A stretch of 64,000 bases of DNA. Source: Patescibacteria group bacterium. Its GTDB lineage: Bacteria > Patescibacteriota > Patescibacteriia > Buchananbacterales > UBA6539. This document shows positions 1 to 60,626 of the stretch, in pieces (the stretch's first letter is position 1; the number at the start of each line of letters is the position of its first letter). Under the pieces are notes generated by a model. That model was not told the DNA's origin. It worked only from the letters and a program-made list of their open reading frames with translations, and ran no database searches. The stretch covers positions 65,920-129,919 of the forward strand of contig JBAZMQ010000002.1 of NCBI GenBank assembly GCA_041649675.1, read 5' to 3'. A program made the translations under genes and the position numbers.

Positions 1-365
1 TTAATAATTTCTGGCACCGAAATCAATTTAAAAAAACTGGCCAAAAATATTTCATCCAAAATTACCAGATTAAATTTAGAACTTTTTAAAATTTTCTTGC
101 AAAATTTCAAAGCTTTTTTAGCTTCAACTTTATCATTGGGTTTACCTAAGCCATAAATAAAAGTTTTTTGGCCAAAGCGCTTGACTGTAATTTCCGGCAG
201 TTTCTTTAAACTGTTTAACTCGCTGTAATCCTGGGCTTTAAGAAATTGAACAATATACACTTTAAAACCCGCACCTACAGCGCGCAAAGCCAAACCTAAG
301 GCGGCTGTGGTTTTACCCTTACCATTGCCAGTATAAATATGAATTTTGCCTAAATTGCTTTTCAT
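1..365 (-). CDS. cobO: cob(I)yrinic acid a,c-diamide / cob(I)alamin adenosyltransferase (CobO/BtuR-like), 3'-partial (C-terminus beyond window start)
   Basis: Minus-strand reading from ATG at 363-365 gives MKSNLGKIHIYTGNGKGKTTAALGLALRAVGAGFKVYIVQFLK..., with the P-loop GNGKGKTTAA and overall colinearity with E. coli BtuR. The start overlaps the upstream gene's stop in an ATGA motif. Confidence 0.75.
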   Translation of the reverse strand, partial: MKSNLGKIHIYTGNGKGKTTAALGLALRAVGAGFKVYIVQFLKAQDYSELNSLKKLPEITVKRFGQKTFIYGLGKPNDKVEAKKALKFCKKILKSSKFNLVILDEIFLASFFKLISVPEII

Positions 366-838
366 AAATCTTCTTCGGTCATTACCTTAATACCATTTTG
401 CAAAAGCAAGGCGGCTAAAACCCCATTGCCTTCAACTAAAGTCCGGGAAAAATTTCCATCATAAGTTTTGCCGTGGCCACAAGAGGGACTTTTAGCTTTT
501 AATATTGCTAAAGTTGCGCCAGTTAGCTTGGCGATTTGCAAAACTTCTTGGGCACCTTTAATAAACTCACCAGAAACATCCGTACCGTCCGGTTCCACGA
601 CTTTTACCTCCCCGATTAATACTCTATCACCCTGACCACCGTTAATTTCGGCTCCGGGCCGTGGAGTACTTTGGCCGCCATAAATTTCGGGGCAAACGGG
701 AATAAAATTTTTATCTTTAACAAAATCTAAAACCTTCTGATTAAGTCGATTACCACCCTTATAATCACAGTTTACACCTAACAGGCAGGCGCTAACTAAA
801 ATTGTTGGTTCTTTTGCCATAATCCCATTATAAATCAA
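362..838 (-). CDS. DUF523 family protein (YbbK / TudS-like, Cys-rich)
   Basis: 158-aa ORF with VSACLLGVNCDYKGG...CPE...SPSCG spacing, typical of the DUF523/TudS family. Family assignment is from memory of the motif pattern. Confidence 0.55.
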   Translation of the reverse strand: MIYNGIMAKEPTILVSACLLGVNCDYKGGNRLNQKVLDFVKDKNFIPVCPEIYGGQSTPRPGAEINGGQGDRVLIGEVKVVEPDGTDVSGEFIKGAQEVLQIAKLTGATLAILKAKSPSCGHGKTYDGNFSRTLVEGNGVLAALLLQNGIKVMTEEDL

Positions 839-1029
839 TCCTTTGCCGTTGACAAAGTATTCCTCATTGTGCTAAAAACAAGATGGCAAAAGAGATAGTC
901 TCTGGCGCCATTGAACACTACAATTGGCTTTATTTGCTTTAGAGCAAAAAAAGCCGGCTTCTTTTTTCGAAGAGAAGTGCACAGCTGCTTTAGAGCAGCG
1001 CCTGCTTTAGCAGGAAAAGGATAAAGATA

Positions 1030-1809
1030 ATGGGAGAAGATAGAAAAAATCTGACAGAAGCATTGATATTCCAAGCGGTAGAAAAACTGTTTGGACAGTC
1101 AACACTTACATTGCTAAAGGAACTTCAAGATTCTGCTGAGATGTGCCGGCAAATTGAGGCCATTGTTATGGCCGAATACAAAAAACCGGCCAACCAGGTA
1201 GAAATGCTTTGGCTACTGCTTCGTTTGACTGAATACAAAGTGCTGTTGGCGGCGGTGTCACCTACCACAGCTTCCGGTGATGATAACCAACTGAAAAGTA
1301 ACTGTGGCCTGGCTGTATTAAACAAAGCCATTGAAATTCTTGGCTACAAAAATTTGCGGGCAGCAGCAGTCGGAGAAATGCTTTACCACATGGCGGTAAT
1401 CTGTATCTTCAACCATGACTTGGAAATGAGCCTTGGTTTCTTCAAAGTTATCGTCAATTTCAATTTCAGTTCGGGCGGTGATTTAGATACGGAAATAGCC
1501 AACGCCATCCGGTTGGCAATAGTCAATAAAAATTCGACAGAAAAAATACCTTTGCCTCGTCTCCTCTGCTATTCTCAGATGCTTATGAACCAGGCGGCGG
1601 CGCAGACAGAGGCTGACAAAGTTAAGCGGGCAAGACCGCTGCTGAAAGTTTTACTTCATGCCATTATCAATACCCTGGATTTGCCAGAGCTTCTCTGTGC
1701 TGCTGAAATCTTGAAGTTGCTGACGGTAACTAAAGAAAATCAAAAACAAGGTTTGGAATTTCTCAGGGCACTTATGCCGGTCTTGGTTACGGCAGCGGAA
1801 GCTGAGTAG
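1030..1809 (+). CDS. hypothetical protein (259 aa), no recognisable motifs; slightly elevated GC (~44%)
   Basis: Long uninterrupted ORF in an otherwise gene-dense region; helical, Leu/Ala-rich. No homolog recognised. Confidence 0.45.
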   Translation: MGEDRKNLTEALIFQAVEKLFGQSTLTLLKELQDSAEMCRQIEAIVMAEYKKPANQVEMLWLLLRLTEYKVLLAAVSPTTASGDDNQLKSNCGLAVLNKAIEILGYKNLRAAAVGEMLYHMAVICIFNHDLEMSLGFFKVIVNFNFSSGGDLDTEIANAIRLAIVNKNSTEKIPLPRLLCYSQMLMNQAAAQTEADKVKRARPLLKVLLHAIINTLDLPELLCAAEILKLLTVTKENQKQGLEFLRALMPVLVTAAEAE

Positions 1810-1838
1810 AAAAATGGCTAAAGCAAAACCAAAACATT

Positions 1839-2099
1839 TTGCCCCATCACCATTTCGCCATCAAAGACCACGGCATCTGCCATTTGTGCAATGGTATGAT
1901 AAGCGCTGGCGATTATTATGAAGGTAATGTCTTTGTTGAAATTGTCAGCCAAAGAGGCAGGCGAAAGAAAAAAGAAATAAGGGTAATAAAAACCCACTTT
2001 CCGTGCCCTGACGAACTAGACGAAATGGAAAAAGAAGCCGCCCAAGAACGCCAAGAGGAAAATGGTTTTCAAGGCGAAATTTTTCAGTTAGCTGCCTAA
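1839..2099 (+). CDS. hypothetical small protein (86 aa)
   Basis: ORF 29 nt downstream of the previous gene, followed by an intrinsic-terminator-like hairpin plus T-run. Confidence 0.3.
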   Translation: MPHHHFAIKDHGICHLCNGMISAGDYYEGNVFVEIVSQRGRRKKKEIRVIKTHFPCPDELDEMEKEAAQERQEENGFQGEIFQLAA

Positions 2100-2121
2100 A
2101 ATGATTTAGGTGGCTTTTTTT
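2095..2121 (+). terminator. candidate rho-independent terminator (CCTAAA-atga-TTTAGG stem, then tggc + TTTTTTT)
   Basis: 6-bp stem with 4-nt loop followed by a 7-T run immediately after the stop of ORF 1839-2099. Confidence 0.4.
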
Positions 2122-2364
2122 ATTATTAAAAAGCAAATCCCCGCCTAGAGGGACCTGCTTTCGTGTTTGTTAGTTAAACTTTAACTTAAGCCGCAAAGTT
2201 ATTCACAGAGCAGTTTAAGCTATTTATATTATACCAAAAATACCATGATTAAAAAAGAAGAGGGGCAAGACCGTGCAAAAACGACCTGCCCCTGATAAAA
2301 ATACCCTCCAAAAATTGCGGCGGACCAAAGACCAAAACTACGAAAGGAACCAGGGTCCAAAGCC

Positions 2365-3114
2365 CTAGATGTAACTACTGCACGAGGCTGAACCCCACTT
2401 GGCACTGACATGGTCGACGCTACTGTAGTAGAGCCTGGGCTCACCGCCGCCGCGACACAGGTTGGGCACCTTGCCAGCGTCCTTAAACCGCGAACCAGTA
2501 GCATCAACGTTGTGCCGCGCGAGAACATCTGTATGGATGTCCAGAGCAATGGCGCCGGTTGCGATAACGCGCAGACGGCCTTGGTCCTCGATAATGGTTT
2601 TTTCGTCTTCCGGGGTAGTTTTGTCGGTGCAGAACTGCTGGCCGTCTTCCACGTCAGTCAGCCACCAGGCGATGCCTTCAGGCAATTCCACTTCGTCGGT
2701 GATCTCGTCGTCGGTCAGGTAGTTGGTGCCATCATTGCCTATGTACTTGGCCATCAGCATTTGCACACTGGCGGTCAGAAAGTCCTTGCTGATGGCGGCA
2801 AGTATTGGCAGATGGGTACCGATGATCGGCACGTTCGCGACCTTGGCAATCGCCGCTTCTCGTTTGGACTCAAGGCAGGTGACAATCGCGTCAATCTGTT
2901 CTTGCGTGACCTTGCCTTTTGCGACGAGCTCGCCGAGCCGCTGCCGCAGACAGGCGACCTGCTCGTTGGCCATGGCCAGCAATTCCTCGGCTGTGTAGAC
3001 CTTGTGCTTGCCGACCAACCCTTCCTTGATCTTTCCGAGAACTTCATCAACCTTGTCCGGCGGTACGTTGATCAGGACATCAACTGCCTCGTTCACAACC
3101 TTCCTCATGTCCAT
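2365..3114 (-). CDS. hypothetical protein, compositionally atypical (~58% GC) ORFan
   Basis: Start chosen at ATG 3112-3114 (MDMRKVVNEAVDVL...), preceded by a strong SD GAAGGGAGAAACAAAC. The six-frame ORF extends further 5' to 3243 but lacks an RBS there. Acidic, Ala-rich; no family recognised. GC far above the window background. Confidence 0.5.
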   Translation of the reverse strand: MDMRKVVNEAVDVLINVPPDKVDEVLGKIKEGLVGKHKVYTAEELLAMANEQVACLRQRLGELVAKGKVTQEQIDAIVTCLESKREAAIAKVANVPIIGTHLPILAAISKDFLTASVQMLMAKYIGNDGTNYLTDDEITDEVELPEGIAWWLTDVEDGQQFCTDKTTPEDEKTIIEDQGRLRVIATGAIALDIHTDVLARHNVDATGSRFKDAGKVPNLCRGGGEPRLYYSSVDHVSAKWGSASCSSYI

Positions 3115-3261
3115 GTTTGTTTCTCCCTTCGGAAACCTATGTTTGCCACTGCTCTCCGTGGCTCGAGATTTTCTCTGAATTTCAACAATATTGGTACTAA
3201 AACAATAACATGATAATATATCATTTATTAAACCAAATGTCAATAATAAAATACCTAAAAA

Positions 3262-3298
3262 TAAACTCCCGCCTAGAGGAGCTTATTTTTTGAACTTA
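3262..3298. terminator. candidate bidirectional terminator / repeated GC motif (AAACTCC-cgcctaga-GGAGCTT flanked by A-run and T-run)
   Basis: Hairpin with A-rich 5' flank and T-rich 3' flank, about 70 nt downstream of the nrdJ stop on the minus strand. Contains CCCGCCTAGAGG, which is also present at 2143-2154. Confidence 0.35.
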
Positions 3299-3364
3299 TA
3301 TCCAGTTAATTAGACTGCTATACCAAATGAGAATAAACTTACCTACTGCTTTTTCTATACCAAA

Positions 3365-5719
3365 TTAACCGCATTTAGAAAAACCACAAGATCGGCACTT
3401 CAAACAGCCTTCGGAAATCTCTAAAATATTGCCGCATTCCGGACATTCCGGCGCCGTACCAAAATCCGCAATATCACGCTTAATATTTAAGCCATTGCCA
3501 TTATGAGAAACTGGCGCTGGATCTGGCGCTGGTTTAGCCATCGCCTCTTTAGTCACCTGATCAGCCGAATGAAATTCTAAACCCAACTTGGGCTGATTTT
3601 GAGTGATATGACGCTCTAAAATTTGAGCAATGGCGTCAGGCAGGGACAAAACCATTCCACCCTCAGTCCAAGACGGCATCGGCCCTCTAATCCCTTTAAT
3701 TTGCTTAATTACCTCTTCTGGCGGAATTCCGGCGCGCAAAGCTAGCGACAGCAAACGGCAGACCGCTTCTGACTTGGCCGAAAAGAATCCACCGGCCTTG
3801 CCAATTGTGGCAAAAACCTCAAATGGCCGGCCTTGCTCATCGTCATTAATGGTGGTAAATAAATCACCATAGGAGGTAGTAATTTTATAGGTAGTTCCCC
3901 GCATTGCTGCTGGCCGTTCTCGTTTATAAAAAGGTTGGGCCACAACTGGCTTTTCTTCCTTTGATTGGTGGGATTTACCAGTGGTTAGAACTTGGACTTC
4001 CCGGCTGCCATCACGATAGATCGTTACTCCCTTGCAGCCGGTTTCATAAGCCAATAAATAAGCCTTGGCAATATCTTCTTTAGTAGCGGTATGAGAAAAA
4101 TTAATTGTTTTGGAAACAGCATTATCAATATGTTTTTGAAAAGCCGCCTGCATCCGAATATGCCATTCCGGACTAATATCGTGAGCCGTGGTAAAAATTC
4201 TTTTTATATCATCGGGTATTTCGGCCAAATCTTTAATTGATCCGGCTTCCGAAATTTTTTCCATCAATTCTTTTGAATAAAATCCTCGCTCTTTGGCAAT
4301 TTGCTCAAAGTAAGGATTAACTTCAACCAATTCCACCCAATCATCACCCTTTTTGCCGATATGAGATTTACGAACATAGGCCAGGGCAAATAACGGTTCA
4401 ATGCCGGAAGAACAAGAAGCAATAATGCTCAAGGTGCCGGTTGGCGCAATTGTCGTTCGGGTGGCATTGCGAATACCTTCGCTTTCTGAAGTATCGTAAA
4501 TACTACCTTCAAAGTTAGGAAAGACGCCTTTTTCTTTGGCCAAAGCCACCGAAGCTTTGTCAGCCTCTTGTTTGATAAATCGCATTACTCTTTCGGCTAA
4601 ATCAATGGCTCTTTGGCTATTGTAAGGAATTCCTAATTGAATTAACATATCGGCCCAACCCATAATGCCTAAACCAATCTTTCGGTTATTGCGAGACATT
4701 TCCCCAATTTCTTTGACCGGATATCGGTTCATGTCAATTACATCATCTAAAAATTGAACCGCAATCTTTACTAATTCACCCAAGCGTTCAAAATCAATCT
4801 TGCCTTCCAAAACGAAATTGGCTAAATTGATTGAACCCAAATTGCAAGATTCAAAAGGCAGTAACGGCTGCTCGCCACAAGGATTTGTACTTTCAATCTT
4901 GCCAATATGAGGAGTAGGATTGAACTTATTTATTGTATCAATAAAAATTACTCCCGGATCACCATTTTTCCAGGCGTGCTCAACAATTTTGTCCCAAACT
5001 TCCTTGGCTTTTAGCTTAAAAGCCAGCTGACCATCGTGAGGATTGATCAAATCATACTCTTCGTCACGGTCCAAGGCTTCCATAAACCGGTCAGTAATAG
5101 CAACTGACAAATTAAAATTATTCAATTTATCATTATCTTCTTTAGCGTTAATGAATTCTAAAATGTCTGGATGATCTACCCGTAAAATACCCATGTTCGC
5201 TCCCCGCCGAGTGCCGCCTTGCTTGATCGTATCGGTTGCTGCATCAAAAACCCGCATAAAAGAAATCGGACCGGAAGCTAAACCGTTGGTCGTTTTGACC
5301 ACGTCTTTGGCCGGACGCAAACGAGAAAATGAAAAACCAGTGCCACCGCCTGATTTGTGAATTAAAGCCGTCTGTTTAATCGCTTCAAAAATATCTTCCA
5401 TTGAATCACCAACGGGTAAAACAAAACAAGCTGATAATTGGCCTAAATCCGTGCCCGCCCCGGAAAAAGTCGGACTATTGGGTAAAAAATCCAAATTGAC
5501 CATGATTTCCAAAAAGGCCCGCTCCAATTCTTCCTTCTTCTCTTTGGATAAATTATACTTGTCTTCGGCTTTAACAATAAAACTTGATACCCGCTTAAAC
5601 ATTTCCATTGGTTTTTCCACCACTTTGCCGTTTTCATCCTTTTGCAAATAGCGGCTTTCTAAAACCTTCAAAGCATTTTTCGTTAATTTCAGTTTTGGCT
5701 CACCAACTCCAAAAATCAT
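3365..5719 (-). CDS. nrdJ: adenosylcobalamin-dependent (class II) ribonucleotide reductase
   Basis: 784-aa ORF collinear with class II RNRs (N-terminal LESRYL, catalytic-core motifs, C-terminal zinc ribbon CPECG...CLKCRSCG). Confidence 0.9.
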   Translation of the reverse strand: MIFGVGEPKLKLTKNALKVLESRYLQKDENGKVVEKPMEMFKRVSSFIVKAEDKYNLSKEKKEELERAFLEIMVNLDFLPNSPTFSGAGTDLGQLSACFVLPVGDSMEDIFEAIKQTALIHKSGGGTGFSFSRLRPAKDVVKTTNGLASGPISFMRVFDAATDTIKQGGTRRGANMGILRVDHPDILEFINAKEDNDKLNNFNLSVAITDRFMEALDRDEEYDLINPHDGQLAFKLKAKEVWDKIVEHAWKNGDPGVIFIDTINKFNPTPHIGKIESTNPCGEQPLLPFESCNLGSINLANFVLEGKIDFERLGELVKIAVQFLDDVIDMNRYPVKEIGEMSRNNRKIGLGIMGWADMLIQLGIPYNSQRAIDLAERVMRFIKQEADKASVALAKEKGVFPNFEGSIYDTSESEGIRNATRTTIAPTGTLSIIASCSSGIEPLFALAYVRKSHIGKKGDDWVELVEVNPYFEQIAKERGFYSKELMEKISEAGSIKDLAEIPDDIKRIFTTAHDISPEWHIRMQAAFQKHIDNAVSKTINFSHTATKEDIAKAYLLAYETGCKGVTIYRDGSREVQVLTTGKSHQSKEEKPVVAQPFYKRERPAAMRGTTYKITTSYGDLFTTINDDEQGRPFEVFATIGKAGGFFSAKSEAVCRLLSLALRAGIPPEEVIKQIKGIRGPMPSWTEGGMVLSLPDAIAQILERHITQNQPKLGLEFHSADQVTKEAMAKPAPDPAPVSHNGNGLNIKRDIADFGTAPECPECGNILEISEGCLKCRSCGFSKCG

Positions 5720-5985
5720 AAATATTTATAATTACTTAATCTTTAATTGAGTGAACAAAAAATAAGACAATTGGTGCCTTATTAAAAATTTTTAACCAAC
5801 CACACTTTTATTTTTCTTTTCTGAAACTTATTTTATTTTTGATTTTTTGTTCCTACTTAATATTTTACTACTTCGTCTTTTTAAAAACAAGCTGGGCAAA
5901 ACTGCCAAAATAAAGGGTTATTTTACTTCATCTTTTTCCGGCTAAAGGCGGCGGGCAGGCCCGCCGAAATCACCAAAATCCAAAC

Positions 5986-7188
5986 CTACTTCATTTTTTT
6001 CCGGATGAAGGCGGGAATATCTAGCTCCTCCTCCTCGGGTGTTTTGTCAACTTCTTTAGCAAATACTTTTTTGACAATTTTTCTGGGCAGCCTGGTGATT
6101 TCTTCTTCTGACCGACGATTTTTAGCTTCAATAAACTCACTGGGCGTATAAGCTGATTCTTTGGTCGCTACACTTTCGGCCATATTGGCATTGCTGCGCG
6201 TTTCCCGACCAGAAAAACCAGTGGCAATAACTGTAATTTTTATTTCATCCTTCATGTTTTCGTCAATAACCGCACCAAAAATAATTTTGGCGCCCGGATC
6301 GGCTGACTGGGTAATAATTTTAGCCGCCTCATTAACTTCATACATGCCCAAATCTGCACCACCAACAACTGTAAACAAAATCCCCTTGGCCCCATCAATT
6401 GAAAGCTCAAGTAACGGGCTAGAAATTGCGGCTTTAGCTGCCTGAGTGGCCCGATTTTCACCGCTGCCTTGACCAATACCCATTAAAGCCGAGCCGGTTT
6501 CTTGCATAATCGTTTTGACATCGGCAAAATCAACATTAATCAAACCCGGCATGGTAATAATTTCAGCAATGCCTTGCACGCCCTGTTTTAATATTTCATC
6601 ACAAATTTTAAAAGCTTCTAATAAAGATGTTTTTTTATCAATAATTTGCAATAATCGGTCATTGGGAATCGTGACAATAGCATCAACTTTGTCTTTCAAG
6701 CTGTTATACCCTCTTTCGGCAATATCGCGCCGTTGGGCACCTTCAAACGAAAAAGGCTTGGTCACCACCGCTACGGTCAAAGCTCCGGCTTCTTTAGCCA
6801 TATTGGCAATCACCGGCGCTGCACCGGTACCGGTACCACCACCCAAACCACAGGTAATAAAAACCATGTCCGCTCCTTTAAGCAAGTCACGAATTTCACT
6901 TTGGCTTTCTTCGGCTGCCTTGTTACCAACTTCCGGATTCATTCCTGCCCCCAAGCCGCGAGTTGTCATTTTACCGATATGCAGCTTGGTATTGGCTTGA
7001 GAATGATGCAGGGCTTGAACATCAGTATTAATTGCCAAAAAATCCACTCCTTTAATCCTGGATTGGACCATTCGATTAATAGCAGCACCACCCGAACCGC
7101 CAACACCAACTACTTTGATTTTGGCAAAAGTTTCAATTTCTGGTTTGATTTCGGCCATAGAATTAGGCTTTATCTTTTTTATACTCAA
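5986..7188 (-). CDS. ftsZ: cell division protein FtsZ
   Basis: GVGGSGGAAINRM and GGGTGTGAAPVIA tubulin signature motifs. The true start may be the internal Met (MAEIKPEIETF...) about 10 codons downstream. Confidence 0.95.
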   Translation of the reverse strand: MSIKKIKPNSMAEIKPEIETFAKIKVVGVGGSGGAAINRMVQSRIKGVDFLAINTDVQALHHSQANTKLHIGKMTTRGLGAGMNPEVGNKAAEESQSEIRDLLKGADMVFITCGLGGGTGTGAAPVIANMAKEAGALTVAVVTKPFSFEGAQRRDIAERGYNSLKDKVDAIVTIPNDRLLQIIDKKTSLLEAFKICDEILKQGVQGIAEIITMPGLINVDFADVKTIMQETGSALMGIGQGSGENRATQAAKAAISSPLLELSIDGAKGILFTVVGGADLGMYEVNEAAKIITQSADPGAKIIFGAVIDENMKDEIKITVIATGFSGRETRSNANMAESVATKESAYTPSEFIEAKNRRSEEEITRLPRKIVKKVFAKEVDKTPEEEELDIPAFIRKKMK

Positions 7189-59975: not shown

Positions 59976-60626
59976 ATGGGAGATTTTACAATGAAAAAGC
60001 TTAGAGGAGTAACTCACGAGAATGCCGTAATCACTGCCAAGGCCAATCCGGAAATGGCAGTCGCTATTGCCAAACGTTTTCCCGATCTGCTTATACCGAT
60101 CTCACTTGAGGTCAGAGGTCAATTGGGGGAGCTGGCACAGGCCTTTCCAAAATCGGCAATCGATCTAATCAGAGGGGACCCCTATCGGGCAATAATAATT
60201 GCCCAGGCCCTACCGGAAAAAACCATGGAAATTTCCGAGTACGCCTGTTGCCACATTCCAGAGTTGGCCAAGGCCGTGCCTTCGGCCGCCGCTGAATTAG
60301 CCCGGGCCTACGGTACCCAAGAGTGGGAAATTGTCTTGATGGTGCCGGACAAAGCGCCCGAAATCGCCCAAGCGATTCCCAGACTGTGCGTGCGCATCGT
60401 TCAAGAATTTCCACAAATGGCGCCGACAATCGCCGAAAAGGTCCCAGGCAAAGCAGTTGATATCGCCCTCGCTGTACCAAGCTTCGCTGTTGAAGTTGCC
60501 ATAGCCTGCCCACAAAATGCGGCAGAGATTGCCAACAGAATTGAAACGGCCAGAGAGGCAATTCTGGCGATTTCAAAAGTGAAGGCAAAACCGCGTCACC
60601 GGTGGCTTCACTGGCTCATTGGTTAG
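59976..60626 (+). CDS. hypothetical A/P-rich repeat protein, compositionally atypical (~52% GC)
   Basis: 216-aa ORF built from about 8 degenerate 12-13-aa repeats (e.g. EMAVAIAKRFPD, PEIAQAIPRL, PTIAEKVPGKA, AVDIALAVPSFA, EVAIACPQNA), suggesting a helical solenoid. No family recognised. Confidence 0.45.
   Translation: MGDFTMKKLRGVTHENAVITAKANPEMAVAIAKRFPDLLIPISLEVRGQLGELAQAFPKSAIDLIRGDPYRAIIIAQALPEKTMEISEYACCHIPELAKAVPSAAAELARAYGTQEWEIVLMVPDKAPEIAQAIPRLCVRIVQEFPQMAPTIAEKVPGKAVDIALAVPSFAVEVAIACPQNAAEIANRIETAREAILAISKVKAKPRHRWLHWLIG

What the first reader, a model, noticed from the sequence alone, without database searches (positions are those of the whole stretch)
840..3300. Compositionally foreign 2.5-kb island between cobO and nrdJ, with an 11/11 repeated CCCGCCTAGAGG motif bracketing a ~58% GC ORFan
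The window background is about 38-40% GC, but 2365-3114 (minus strand) is about 58% GC. It encodes an acidic 250-aa protein with a strong SD and no recognisable family. Two plus-strand hypothetical genes (1030-2099, about 44% GC) converge on it. The motif AAA.CCCGCCTAGAGG occurs at 2140-2156 and again at 3265-3283, on either side of the GC-rich gene; both copies sit in hairpin/terminator-like contexts. The island splits a functionally linked pair: cobO-like adenosyltransferase, which makes AdoCbl, and AdoCbl-dependent nrdJ. This pattern fits a horizontally acquired cassette or a chimeric contig.
Basis: seen in the sequence. Interest (0 to 1): 0.6.

Follow-up and report, generated by a model that had tools for sequence, protein, structure and literature searches.

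The report
Orphan DGR variable-protein gene, GC-rich
The GC-rich "ORFan" is the hypervariable target gene of a diversity-generating retroelement, inserted without its reverse transcriptase next to the nrdJ terminator of a Patescibacteria genome; the odd part is that this gene family stays GC-rich in every low-GC genome that carries it.

Summary
Window 2365-3114(-) is 56% GC (GC3 0.70) against 40% for the rest of the window, and CCCGCCTAGAGG occurs exactly twice, each time at the tip of a minus-strand hairpin.

The gene is not an ORFan. It belongs to a large DUF5701-related family, mostly from Patescibacteria. In sister loci the same promoter-to-terminator cassette is followed by a reverse transcriptase, an Avd protein and a template repeat. 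That repeat differs from the last ~120 nt of the gene almost only at adenines, which is the DGR signature. The window copy keeps the variable region but has no RT, Avd or template repeat in ~79 kb of contig, so it is an orphan or remote target.

Related genomes lack the cassette at this site; in one, nrdJ and cobO are 80 nt apart. So it is an insertion, not a chimera.

The repeated motif is the conserved nrdJ terminator, duplicated here. It is neither part of the cassette nor a genome-wide consensus.

High GC does not mark a high-GC donor. Across 29 loci the target gene averages 15 GC points above its flanks, and it is well above its own RT and Avd where those were measured. That is unexplained.

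The kind of element is known; the family-wide GC anomaly is the curious part.

The parts
3365..5719 (-). nrdJ (class II ribonucleotide reductase, 784 aa); upstream flank of the insertion
   Evidence: ORF; Pfam Ribonuc_red_lgN/lgC/TSCPD on the called gene; 78-91% identical orthologues in L008-L011
3257..3290 (-). Motif copy 2: intrinsic terminator directly after nrdJ (14-bp stem, loop CUAGGC, U-run); a diverged paralogue of the ancestral nrdJ terminator
   Evidence: Fold; terminator scan; comparison with L009, L011 and L008 terminators
3215..3243 (-). Cassette promoter: TTGACA, 17 nt, TG-TATATT (11 of 12); start of the DNA conserved between cassettes
   Evidence: Scan; -35 box, spacer and -10 box align across 6 loci
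3115..3208 (-). Conserved 5'UTR: hairpin GCCACGGAGAGCAGTGGC (3145-3162) and a second hairpin partly covering the Shine-Dalgarno sequence (3118-3136)
   Evidence: Alignments A2 and A6; motif present in 6 distinct cassettes; conserved but without covariation
2365..3114 (-). DGR variable-protein (target) gene, 249 aa, DUF5701-related: helical N-domain plus C-type-lectin-like C-domain; 56% GC
   Evidence: Homologues; cognate TR, RT and Avd in sister loci; AF2 pLDDT 94.8; Foldseek C-type lectin hits
2374..2492 (-). Variable region (last ~40 codons); its 3' end (about 2374-2400) is a conserved G+C-rich IMH-like stretch TGGGGTTCAGCCTCGTGCAGTAGT
   Evidence: 80.7% identical to the L006 template repeat; differences concentrated at TR adenines, 14 of 34 against 9 of 85, p = 4.7e-4; hypervariable columns in A3
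2251..2364 (-). Conserved 3'UTR and the cassette's own intrinsic terminator (stem 2262-2292, U-run 2251-2260)
   Evidence: Alignment A1; fold; read directly in the sequence
2228..2240 (-). Recombination joint: homology to DGR cassettes (L001, L006) ends and homology to the cassette-free relative L008 begins within TTTTTGGTATAAT (an extended -10 box)
   Evidence: Three-way comparison
2120..2228 (-). Candidate small RNA (5' hairpin plus terminator), shared with L008 at 91% identity; not part of the cassette
   Evidence: BLAST; folds with z = -4.1 and -4.4; L008 sequence
2129..2162 (-). Motif copy 1: terminator hairpin most like the nrdJ terminators of L008, L009 and L011 (the ancestral copy by sequence)
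   Evidence: Fold; cross-genome comparison
1030..2099 (+). Two convergent hypothetical ORFs (259 aa; 86 or 67 aa) with their own terminator at 2090-2115; absent from L008; a separate, lineage-specific insertion in the same gap
1..838 (-). DUF523/2-thiouracil desulfurase (362-838) and cobO (1-364, cut by the window edge); downstream flank
   Evidence: Pfam; synteny with L008 and L009

Best explanation
Window 2365-3114(-) encodes the variable protein (target) of a Patescibacteria-type diversity-generating retroelement (DGR).

How the complete element works:
- An Avd-assisted reverse transcriptase copies a template repeat (TR) RNA and randomises positions opposite adenines.
- The cDNA overwrites the last ~120 nt of the gene, the variable region (VR).
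- This diversifies the ligand-binding face of a C-type-lectin-like C-terminal domain.

What the window holds:
- Only the target half of such an element: a ~1.0-kb unit of promoter, conserved 5'UTR, ORF, conserved 3'UTR and terminator (about 3243-2228).
- The unit sits between nrdJ and the small-RNA/terminator segment that follows nrdJ in the closest relative.
- On the distal side, homology to DGR cassettes switches to homology with the cassette-free relative inside a shared TGrTATAAT box.
- No RT, Avd or TR lies within ~79 kb.

So the gene is an orphan. Either a DGR elsewhere in the genome still rewrites it in trans (a remote target), or it is a frozen relic. I put these at roughly even odds.

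The CCCGCCTAGAGG repeat is the loop and upper stem of the lineage's nrdJ terminator. The original-like copy (2129-2162) now lies beyond the insert. A diverged second copy (3257-3290) terminates nrdJ.

The 56% GC is a property of the gene family, not evidence of a high-GC donor.

Shown: family membership, the DGR signature in sister loci, the insertion, the terminator orthology and the family-wide GC excess.
Inferred: past A-mutagenesis of this particular copy, the recombination route, and whether the copy is still active.
For: 1. DGR signature in homologues.
- L006 has target(+), RT(-), bAvd(+) and a 120-nt inverted copy of the gene's 3' end.
- TR-to-VR differences fall at TR adenines. L006: 19 of 34 A sites against 1 of 86 other sites. 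L095: 17/28 against 3/88. L096: 16/27 against 1/90. L099: 16/31 against 0/97.
- The same target(+) RT(-) Avd(+) TR(-) architecture is complete in L095-L097 and L115 and fragmentary in L094, L098 and L099.

2. The window copy.
- 56-70% protein identity to these targets.
- The VR is 80.7% identical to the L006 TR. Its differences are enriched at TR adenines, 14/34 against 9/85, p = 4.7e-4.
- The GC-rich 3' end of the VR is conserved.

3. Cassette. DNA conservation runs from the -35 box to TTTTTGrTATAAT across loci with unrelated neighbours.

4. Orphan status. No RT, Avd or TR in the window, L114 or L116. Decayed intermediates exist: L001 keeps only RT residues 191-362, and L099 keeps Avd and TR but only about 30 RT residues.

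5. Insertion. L008, L009, L010 and L011 lack the gene at this site.

6. Terminator. Near-identical hairpins follow nrdJ in L008, L009 and L011.

7. Fold.
- AF2 gives pLDDT 94.8.
- The best PDB match is the Bd2740 C-type lectin domain (probability 0.97), followed by TSG-6, Ly49, MBP-A, BDCA2 and CD23.
- Its authors single out the DGR target Mtd as the only homologue that trimerises through the same face as Bd2740 (PMC10769870).

8. GC.
- The gene exceeds its flanks in 29 of 29 loci, by 15.3 points on average.
- In L006 the target has GC3 0.76 against 0.42 for its RT. In L095 it is 0.55 against 0.30.
Against: - No cognate TR or RT was found for the window copy, so DGR action on this particular gene is inferred from homology and from a biased substitution pattern against a foreign TR. 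9 of 85 non-A sites also differ.
- The rest of the genome could not be searched.
- The window protein itself is below Pfam's DUF5701 cut-off.
- The two contigs that carry the protein encode it identically, so they show no VR polymorphism.
- The order of events at the site cannot be resolved with four relatives: either gain in the window lineage, or loss in L008; and which hairpin copy is the original is likewise open.
Confidence: 0.85

Rival explanations
1. Recent horizontal acquisition from a high-GC donor organism: the GC excess is un-ameliorated foreign DNA.
For: - Sharp GC step, with GC3 0.70 against 0.36.
- The gene is absent at this site in four relatives.
- One family member sits in a 55% GC contig, L100.
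- L009 carries a different GC-rich 2-kb insert in the same gap.
Against: - The gene is GC-richer than its flanks in 29 of 29 loci, although members are only 25-70% identical. Synonymous sites would have equilibrated over such divergence.
- Within intact DGRs the adjacent RT and Avd are low-GC (L006 RT 38%, Avd 43%, target 59%), so the element as a whole is native to low-GC hosts.
- The promoter and its spacer are AT-rich and conserved among the cassettes.
- Named homologues are almost all Patescibacteria.
Confidence: 0.1
2. Site-specific mobile element: the two CCCGCCTAGAGG hairpins are att sites or a target-site duplication made when a ~1.1-kb element integrated into the nrdJ terminator.
For: - Direct repeats flank the insert 1128 bp apart.
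- Relatives without the gene have a single copy, the classic empty-site pattern.
- Terminator hairpins are known targets of some elements (general knowledge).
Against: - Only 12 nt are identical, with about 25 nt of weak similarity and no longer duplication.
- The stems differ.
- The repeats do not coincide with the limits of inter-cassette homology. Copy 1 lies about 65 nt beyond the cassette end, and the intervening segment is shared with cassette-free L008.
- Other cassettes are flanked by unrelated terminators.
- No integrase, transposase or RT is nearby.
- 12-mer repeats at this spacing are common by chance, 54 in the window.
Confidence: 0.1
3. Assembly chimera: a fragment of a GC-rich genome mis-joined into a Patescibacteria contig.
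For: Abrupt composition change. The data are metagenomic, and coverage could not be checked.
Against: - Two contigs on record carry the identical protein, and the one not shown has mostly the same neighbouring genes.
- The GC-rich part is a single complete gene with an AT-rich sigma-70 promoter and terminator of its own.
- Both flanks are syntenic with L008.
- Independent assemblies of homologues show the same pattern.
Confidence: 0.02
4. An ordinary lineage-specific gene of unknown function with no connection to DGRs in this genome; its resemblance to DGR targets is only shared ancestry, as a family that is merely sometimes recruited by DGRs.
For: - Many loci have no RT or TR within the DNA held (window, L002, L003, L005, L101, L103, L105, L111, L112).
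- No VR polymorphism was seen here.
Against: - Variability among homologues is concentrated exactly in the VR columns, while the flanking GS..., VP.L and WGSASC positions are fixed.
- The window VR shows A-site-biased divergence from a TR.
- Decay intermediates link orphan copies to full DGRs.
- The cassette ends exactly where the RT side begins in L001 and L006.
Confidence: 0.1

Closest known systems
DGR variable proteins of Candidate Phyla Radiation/Patescibacteria (DGR clade 2 of Roux et al. 2021, PMC8144416; first surveyed by Paul et al. 2017)
   Same: - Host lineage.
- A short cytoplasmic-looking protein with no recognisable annotated domain and a C-terminal VR.
- Cognate RT, Avd and TR with adenine-specific TR-to-VR differences in sister loci.
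[quoted passage not shown]
   Different: - The window copy lacks RT, Avd and TR.
- I could not verify whether this exact protein cluster is listed in those surveys' supplements. No paper in the library mentions DUF5701 in its main text.
- A GC excess of the target over its own RT is not mentioned in the papers I could read.
Mtd of Bordetella phage BPP-1 and TvpA of Treponema denticola (archetypal C-type-lectin-fold DGR targets)
   Same: - The VR occupies the C-terminal ~40 residues of a Ca-independent C-type-lectin-like domain.
- The best PDB match, Bd2740, shares its trimerisation face only with Mtd among its homologues, according to its authors.
- A GC-rich IMH-like end of the VR.
   Different: - No detectable sequence similarity to any solved structure.
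- The N-terminal part is a helical bundle or coiled coil rather than a phage fibre.
- TR and RT are inverted relative to the target, and Avd is divergent from RT.
- Not phage-borne: 1 hit in IMG/VR and none in GenBank phages.
Remote or orphan DGR targets (VR-bearing genes far from the RT and diversified in trans, as described for Legionella, Treponema and CPR genomes; from general knowledge)
   Same: An intact ORF with a VR and an IMH-like end but no adjacent RT or TR.
   Different: A trans-acting DGR in this genome has not been found, so activity is unproven.
Pfam PF18959 (DUF5701)
   Same: Homologues carry precomputed PF18959 hits, and P0030 scores 48.8 bits. The window protein aligns to profile positions 37-170.
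   Different: - The window protein scores 23.0 bits, below the 27.4 gathering score.
- Pfam gives the family no function. The DGR link is made here.
Rho-independent terminators
   Same: Both motif copies are G+C-topped hairpins followed by U-runs on the nrdJ strand.
   Different: They share an unusual conserved loop and upper stem (CCUCUAGGCGGG) that is kept across species downstream of nrdJ. That suggests something beyond generic termination, for example the 3' end of a small RNA.

Membership tests
DGR target (variable protein) gene | A cognate template repeat elsewhere that matches the VR except at TR adenines | tested here: not met
   No second copy of the VR in the window, L114 or L116, about 79 kb in all. 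The feature is met in homologous loci L006, L095, L096, L099 and L115.
DGR target (variable protein) gene | A DGR-type reverse transcriptase (with Avd) in the same genome | tested here: not met
   tblastn with the L006 RT and Avd finds nothing in the window, L114 or L116. Both are present next to homologues, with Pfam RVT_1 and bAvd and an IGNLTSQ motif (motif meaning from general knowledge).
DGR target (variable protein) gene | A C-terminal VR whose divergence is concentrated at TR-adenine positions, followed by a conserved G+C-rich IMH-like element | tested here: met
   Against the heterologous L006 TR, 14 of 34 A sites differ against 9 of 85 non-A sites, p = 4.7e-4. TGGGGKTCRGCCTCGTGCAG is conserved at the VR end. 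The family alignment is hypervariable only in these columns.
DGR target (variable protein) gene | VR displayed on a C-type-lectin (or Ig-like) fold | tested here: inconclusive
Pfam DUF5701 (PF18959) | Score at or above the gathering threshold of 27.4 bits | tested here: not met
   23.0 bits, E = 7.7e-5. Homologues pass, so the window protein is a divergent relative, not a formal member.
Integrated mobile element bounded by att sites or a target-site duplication | Direct repeats at the exact ends of the inserted DNA, plus a recombinase or transposase | tested here: not met
   The repeats are offset from the limits of inter-cassette homology. No recombinase is present. Identity is limited to 12 nt.
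Integron gene cassette | An attC site with R''/L''-L'/R' cores, and an IntI with attI nearby | not tested
   Considered from the one-ORF-plus-hairpin look. No integrase domain was seen among the neighbouring genes, and the hairpins are orthologous terminators. No attC model was run.
Intrinsic (Rho-independent) terminator | A G+C-containing stem-loop followed by a U-run, downstream of a gene on the same strand | tested here: met
   Copy 2 is called by the scan. Both copies fold at -17 to -24 kcal/mol on the minus strand with U-tails. Orthologous hairpins lie 30-40 nt after the nrdJ stop in L009 and L011.
Known RNA families (Rfam 15) | A match at the gathering score | tested here: not met
   Only GibS (28 bits against a gathering score of 115) and Atu_C4 (26 against 80), both terminator-driven noise.

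The most novel reading that the evidence does not exclude
A DGR variable-protein family is actively held 10-25 GC points above its host genomes and above its own RT and Avd by a target-specific process. Candidates are GC-biased gene conversion at a recombination hotspot, or a retroelement-linked mutational bias. The mosaic 115-160-nt tracts of 21-28% divergence inside the gene between otherwise near-identical loci would fit the first. On this reading the composition of a hypervariable gene reports its recombination or retro-conversion history rather than foreign origin, and 'GC-foreign' single genes in Patescibacteria could be used to find DGR targets and other conversion hotspots.
Probability: 0.25. 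Interest if true: 0.65.

Novelty: new member of a known kind. Interest (0 to 1): 0.42.

Why it matters
- It turns an apparent GC-foreign ORFan into an interpretable gene: a hypervariable ligand-binding protein of an episymbiotic, small-genome bacterium.
- It gives Pfam DUF5701 a functional context as a DGR variable protein with a lectin-like fold.
- It documents how DGR targets become separated from their RT. The evidence is the decay intermediates and a recombination joint in a shared -10 box.
- It is a warning for genome scans. Here a sharp GC anomaly is not evidence of a foreign donor, because the whole family carries it next to low-GC partner genes. What sustains that composition is an open, testable question.

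Tried and rejected
- Rfam on 1-6500 at E <= 1 gave only noise.
- PHROGs and NCBIfam gave nothing for the target, the two plus-strand ORFs, the L009 island genes or the L003 neighbour. The PADLOC library was not run.
- The first AF2 run, with 9 sequences, was unusable at pLDDT 49. The second, with 61 sequences, succeeded.
- PDB sequence search found no relative.
- I tested whether the two motif copies are the ends of a longer degenerate duplication. They are not: nothing extends beyond about 25 nt.
- I tested whether the motif is a dispersed element. At up to 3 mismatches there are 24 matches against 20.5 expected, and only nrdJ-linked copies occur in relatives.
- I tested whether the GC excess is adenine depletion from RT mutagenesis of the whole mRNA. 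It is not: both A3 and T3 are low and C3 is highest.
- I tested whether the second GC-rich ORF (59976-60626) is a paralogue. It is not.
- I looked for cassette relics in the 250-nt nrdJ-proximal spacer of L008 and found none.
- I looked for VR differences between duplicate assemblies (L001/L088, L003/L004, L002/L090). The sequences are identical, so this says nothing about activity.
- Two contig-walking look-ups failed.
- The Paul et al. 2017 paper could not be read.
Full report
**1. Observation**

Window 2365-3114 on the minus strand is 56.4% GC. The rest of the 64-kb window is 40.0%. Its GC3 is 0.70, against 0.36 +/- 0.05 for 35 other ORFs (z = 7.2), and no other 750-nt stretch is as GC-rich.

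The ORF has a GGGAG Shine-Dalgarno sequence, and the protein is acidic, with pI 4.9. Two plus-strand ORFs (1030-1809 and 1839-2099) converge on it.

CCCGCCTAGAGG occurs exactly at 2140 and 3268 and nowhere else at up to 1 mismatch. Both copies sit at the tip of 14-bp hairpins with loop CUAGGC. These hairpins fold well only on the minus strand, because they use G.U pairs, and each is followed by a U-run.

Three corrections to the finding:
- The neighbour on the cobO side is a DUF523/2-thiouracil-desulfurase gene (362-838), with cobO (1-364) beyond it.
- The repeat is 12/12.
- An exact 12-mer repeated within 1.5 kb is not rare in itself: the window has 54 such pairs. The motif's meaning must come from comparison with other genomes.

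**2. What the GC-rich gene is**

It is not an ORFan. It scores below threshold on Pfam DUF5701 and has homologues at 36-70% identity, two of them named 'Candidatus Buchananbacteria DUF5701 family protein'. A profile search finds 765 clusters. A second search returns 62 proteins, nearly all with PF18959 hits; the few that carry an organism name are mostly from Patescibacteria.

The contig of homologue P0005 (L006) carries a reverse transcriptase and a bAvd protein beside the gene. It also carries a 120-nt inverted copy of the gene's 3' end. Aligned in the sense orientation, that copy differs from the gene at TR adenines only. There are 21 such differences, 12 A-to-G and 9 A-to-T, and every other mismatch lies beyond the repeat's end. 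This is the diagnostic signature of a diversity-generating retroelement, with a template repeat (TR) and a variable region (VR).

Four independent loci show the same pattern:

| Locus | TR adenine sites differing | Other sites differing |
|---|---|---|
| L006 | 19 of 34 | 1 of 86 |
| L095 | 17 of 28 | 3 of 88 |
| L096 | 16 of 27 | 1 of 90 |
| L099 | 16 of 31 | 0 of 97 |

. The architecture target(+), RT(-), Avd(+), TR(-) is complete in L095-L097 and in one IMG/VR contig, L115, and fragmentary in L094, L098 and L099. The RT contains IGNLTSQ, which I recall as the DGR-type motif 4.

**3. The window copy**

Its last ~120 nt (2374-2492) are 80.7% identical to the L006 TR. The differences are concentrated at TR adenines: 14 of 34 against 9 of 85 other sites, Fisher p = 4.7e-4. 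The G+C-rich end of the repeat is conserved. In the family alignment, variability is confined to the VR columns between fixed GS..., VP.L and WGSASC positions.

AlphaFold2 with 61 homologues gives pLDDT 94.8. The model has a helical N-terminal part (residues 1-92) and an alpha/beta C-terminal domain, and the VR forms its last strands.

Foldseek against the PDB gives only weak hits, but they are dominated by C-type-lectin-fold domains. The best is Bd2740-CTD (probability 0.97), followed by the TSG-6 link module, Ly49, MBP-A, BDCA2, CD23 and CLEC5A. The Bd2740 paper describes a Ca-free C-type lectin fold and singles out the DGR target Mtd as the only homologue that trimerises through the same face (PMC10769870).

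**4. Orphan status**

The VR has no second copy, and the L006 RT and Avd have no tblastn hit, in any of the following:
- the window;
- the 7.6 kb to its left (L114);
- the 7.2 kb to its right (L116).

Together these cover about 79 of the 86 kb of the ENA contig.

About half of the family loci with enough flank are also RT-less. Decay intermediates exist: L001/L088 keeps only RT residues 191-362 and has no TR, and L099 keeps Avd and TR but only about 30 RT residues.

The gene may be a remote target of a DGR elsewhere in the genome, or a relic. I cannot decide between these with the data at hand.

**5. The cassette and its insertion**

DNA alignments of six loci with unrelated neighbours show one conserved unit. 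In window coordinates it consists of:
- the -35 box at 3243-3238, a conserved spacer and the TG-TATATT -10 box;
- the 5'UTR, with an invariant hairpin GCCACGGAGAGCAGTGGC and a second hairpin that partly covers the Shine-Dalgarno sequence;
- the ORF and the 3'UTR;
- the terminator at 2262-2292;
- the stretch TTTTTTAATCAkGrTATTTTTGrTATAAT, ending at about 2228.

Beyond that point L001 and L006 continue into a structured region and the RT. The window continues instead into a segment (2236-2112) that is 91% identical to the closest relative L008, which has no cassette. The switch of homology lies inside the shared TGrTATAAT box, which suggests recombination at a short common sequence.

The four closest nrdJ loci all lack the gene:

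| Locus | nrdJ identity | Content between nrdJ and cobO |
|---|---|---|
| L011 | 83% | terminator only (80 nt) |
| L010 | 78% | one methyltransferase gene |
| L008 | 91% | 250-nt AT-rich spacer, small-RNA-like segment, small ORF, DUF523 |
| L009 | 83% | a different 2-kb, 55% GC, two-gene insert, then DUF523 |

The nrdJ-cobO gap is therefore a variable spot, and the DGR target is one of several lineage-specific insertions. The 1030-2099 genes are another: they are absent from L008, and the 259-aa protein has no homologue at all.

A chimeric contig is very unlikely. Two contigs on record carry the identical protein, and the one not shown has mostly the same neighbouring genes. Both flanks are syntenic with L008. 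Other assemblies show the same GC step around homologues.

**6. The repeated motif**

The same hairpin follows nrdJ in three relatives:
- L009: acaaatcCTTCTAGGCGGGgatttgt, 40 nt after the stop codon;
- L011: cagatccCTCCTAGGCGGGggtttg, 30 nt after the stop codon;
- L008: core identical to window copy 1, 335 nt after the stop codon.

So the motif is the lineage's nrdJ terminator. It is not a cassette end, since other cassettes are preceded by unrelated terminators. It is not a genome-wide consensus either.

By sequence, copy 1 (2129-2162) is the ancestral-like copy. In the window and in L008 it also ends a candidate ~100-nt small RNA (z = -4.1 and -4.4). Copy 2 (3257-3290) is more diverged and now terminates nrdJ ahead of the cassette promoter.

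Similarity between the copies does not extend beyond about 25 nt.

The simplest reading is that the insertion separated nrdJ from its terminator and a duplicate of that terminator now does the job. An att or target-duplication origin cannot be excluded, but it fits poorly, because the repeats do not coincide with the cassette limits and no recombinase is present.

**7. The GC anomaly**

High GC is a property of the family, not of this locus. In 29 loci the gene exceeds its flanks every time (mean +15.3 points, range +2 to +26, Wilcoxon p = 2.5e-6), although members are only 25-70% identical.

Within intact elements the partner genes are low-GC. In L006 the target is 59% GC (GC3 0.76), the RT 38% (GC3 0.42) and Avd 43%. 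In L095 GC3 is 0.55 for the target against 0.30 for the RT. That argues against un-ameliorated foreign DNA.

The anomaly is not adenine depletion either: both A3 and T3 are low and C3 is the highest.

One clue comes from the near-identical loci L095, L096 and L097. They differ mainly by 115-160-nt patches of 21-28% divergence inside the target gene and not in the VR. These are recombination tracts. GC-biased gene conversion at a recombination hotspot is therefore a candidate cause, but it is untested.

I found no report of such a GC excess in the DGR papers I could read.

**8. Comparison and verdict**

The closest known systems are the DGR variable proteins of CPR bacteria. These belong to DGR clade 2, whose targets are described as lacking recognisable domains (PMC8144416). 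Structurally the closest are the lectin-fold targets Mtd and TvpA.

The window gene meets the VR and IMH-type criterion by homology and substitution bias. It fails the criterion of a cognate TR and RT in the DNA available, and its fold evidence is only supportive.

I file it as a new member of a known kind, an orphan or remote DGR target, with three additions:
- a functional context for DUF5701;
- a documented route by which targets are separated from their RT;
- an unexplained, family-wide GC excess.

Its 'foreign cassette' reading is right about the insertion, but wrong about the source of the GC signal, about the role of the repeat and about the gene being family-less.

Noticed in passing
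window 2120-2236 (-); L008:3705-3830: Candidate ~100-nt small RNA downstream of nrdJ: an extended -10 box TGGTATAAT, a 5' hairpin whose differences from L008 look compensatory, then the conserved terminator. It is 91% identical between the two genomes, against 83% for nrdJ DNA, and folds with z about -4. It is absent from L009 and L011, where the terminator follows nrdJ directly.
   Followed up: partly
window 1030-1809 (+): The 259-aa helical protein is a true ORFan: it matches only itself in 5.8 billion proteins (NCBI WC508_01250, Patescibacteria group bacterium). It is absent from the closest relative L008. A short repeat GCTTTAGAGCA at 936 and 987 (and GCTTTAGCAGG at about 1003) lies upstream of it and could be an operator.
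   Followed up: partly
window 59976-60626 (+): Second compositional outlier of the window: a 216-aa Ala/Pro-rich repetitive protein at 52% GC (GC3 0.52). It has no Pfam hit and is unrelated to the DGR target family.
   Followed up: partly
L009:9440-11400: The same nrdJ-DUF523 gap in a related Buchananbacteria MAG holds a different GC-rich insert (55% against 46% for the locus) with two overlapping minus-strand ORFs (379 and 290 aa). Neither has a Pfam, PHROGs or NCBIfam match. The gap looks like a hotspot for GC-rich insertions.
   Followed up: partly
L003:1997-3205: A 402-aa protein with a signal-peptide-like N-terminus, also GC-rich (53-59%), sits immediately upstream of the DGR target cassette in a ~42% GC contig. 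No family hit.
   Followed up: no
L006:2128-3749 (also L095, L096, L097, L115): Unusual DGR layout. RT and Avd are divergent, with back-to-back start codons (CATATG at L006:3214-3219). The TR lies beyond Avd on the RT strand, so a TR-RT transcript would have to run antisense through avd. Target and RT are convergent.
   Followed up: no
L001:8880-9045; L006:2010-2130: A conserved structured region lies between the target's terminator and the RT 3' end. It has its own TGATATAAT box, a long inverted repeat (CTGCCTACATTGACTG ... CAGTCAATGTGGGCAG) and a terminator. It may be a DGR-associated non-coding RNA.
   Followed up: no
window 3115-3208 (-) and five other distinct cassettes (L001, L003, L005, L006, L007): The 5'UTR is strongly conserved, with the invariant hairpin GCCACGGAGAGCAGTGGC and a hairpin that partly covers the Shine-Dalgarno sequence. 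There is no covariation and no Rfam match. It may be a translational control element of this target family.
   Followed up: partly
L095, L096, L097 (target gene, L096:406-568 and 580-694): Near-identical DGR loci differ almost only by two mosaic patches of 21-28% divergence inside the target gene, outside the VR. These are recombination tracts from divergent alleles or paralogues.
   Followed up: partly
L001:7580-7665: Reading the sequence by eye, a tRNA-like gene appears to lie about 330 nt upstream of the DGR target cassette promoter in that contig (no tRNA scan was run on L001). L001 is also full of T4SS-pilin-like genes.
   Followed up: no
window 10814-31378 (-): A single 6854-aa ORF with internal repeats and weak T4SS_pilin and MopE hits: a giant surface protein typical of CPR genomes.
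   Followed up: no
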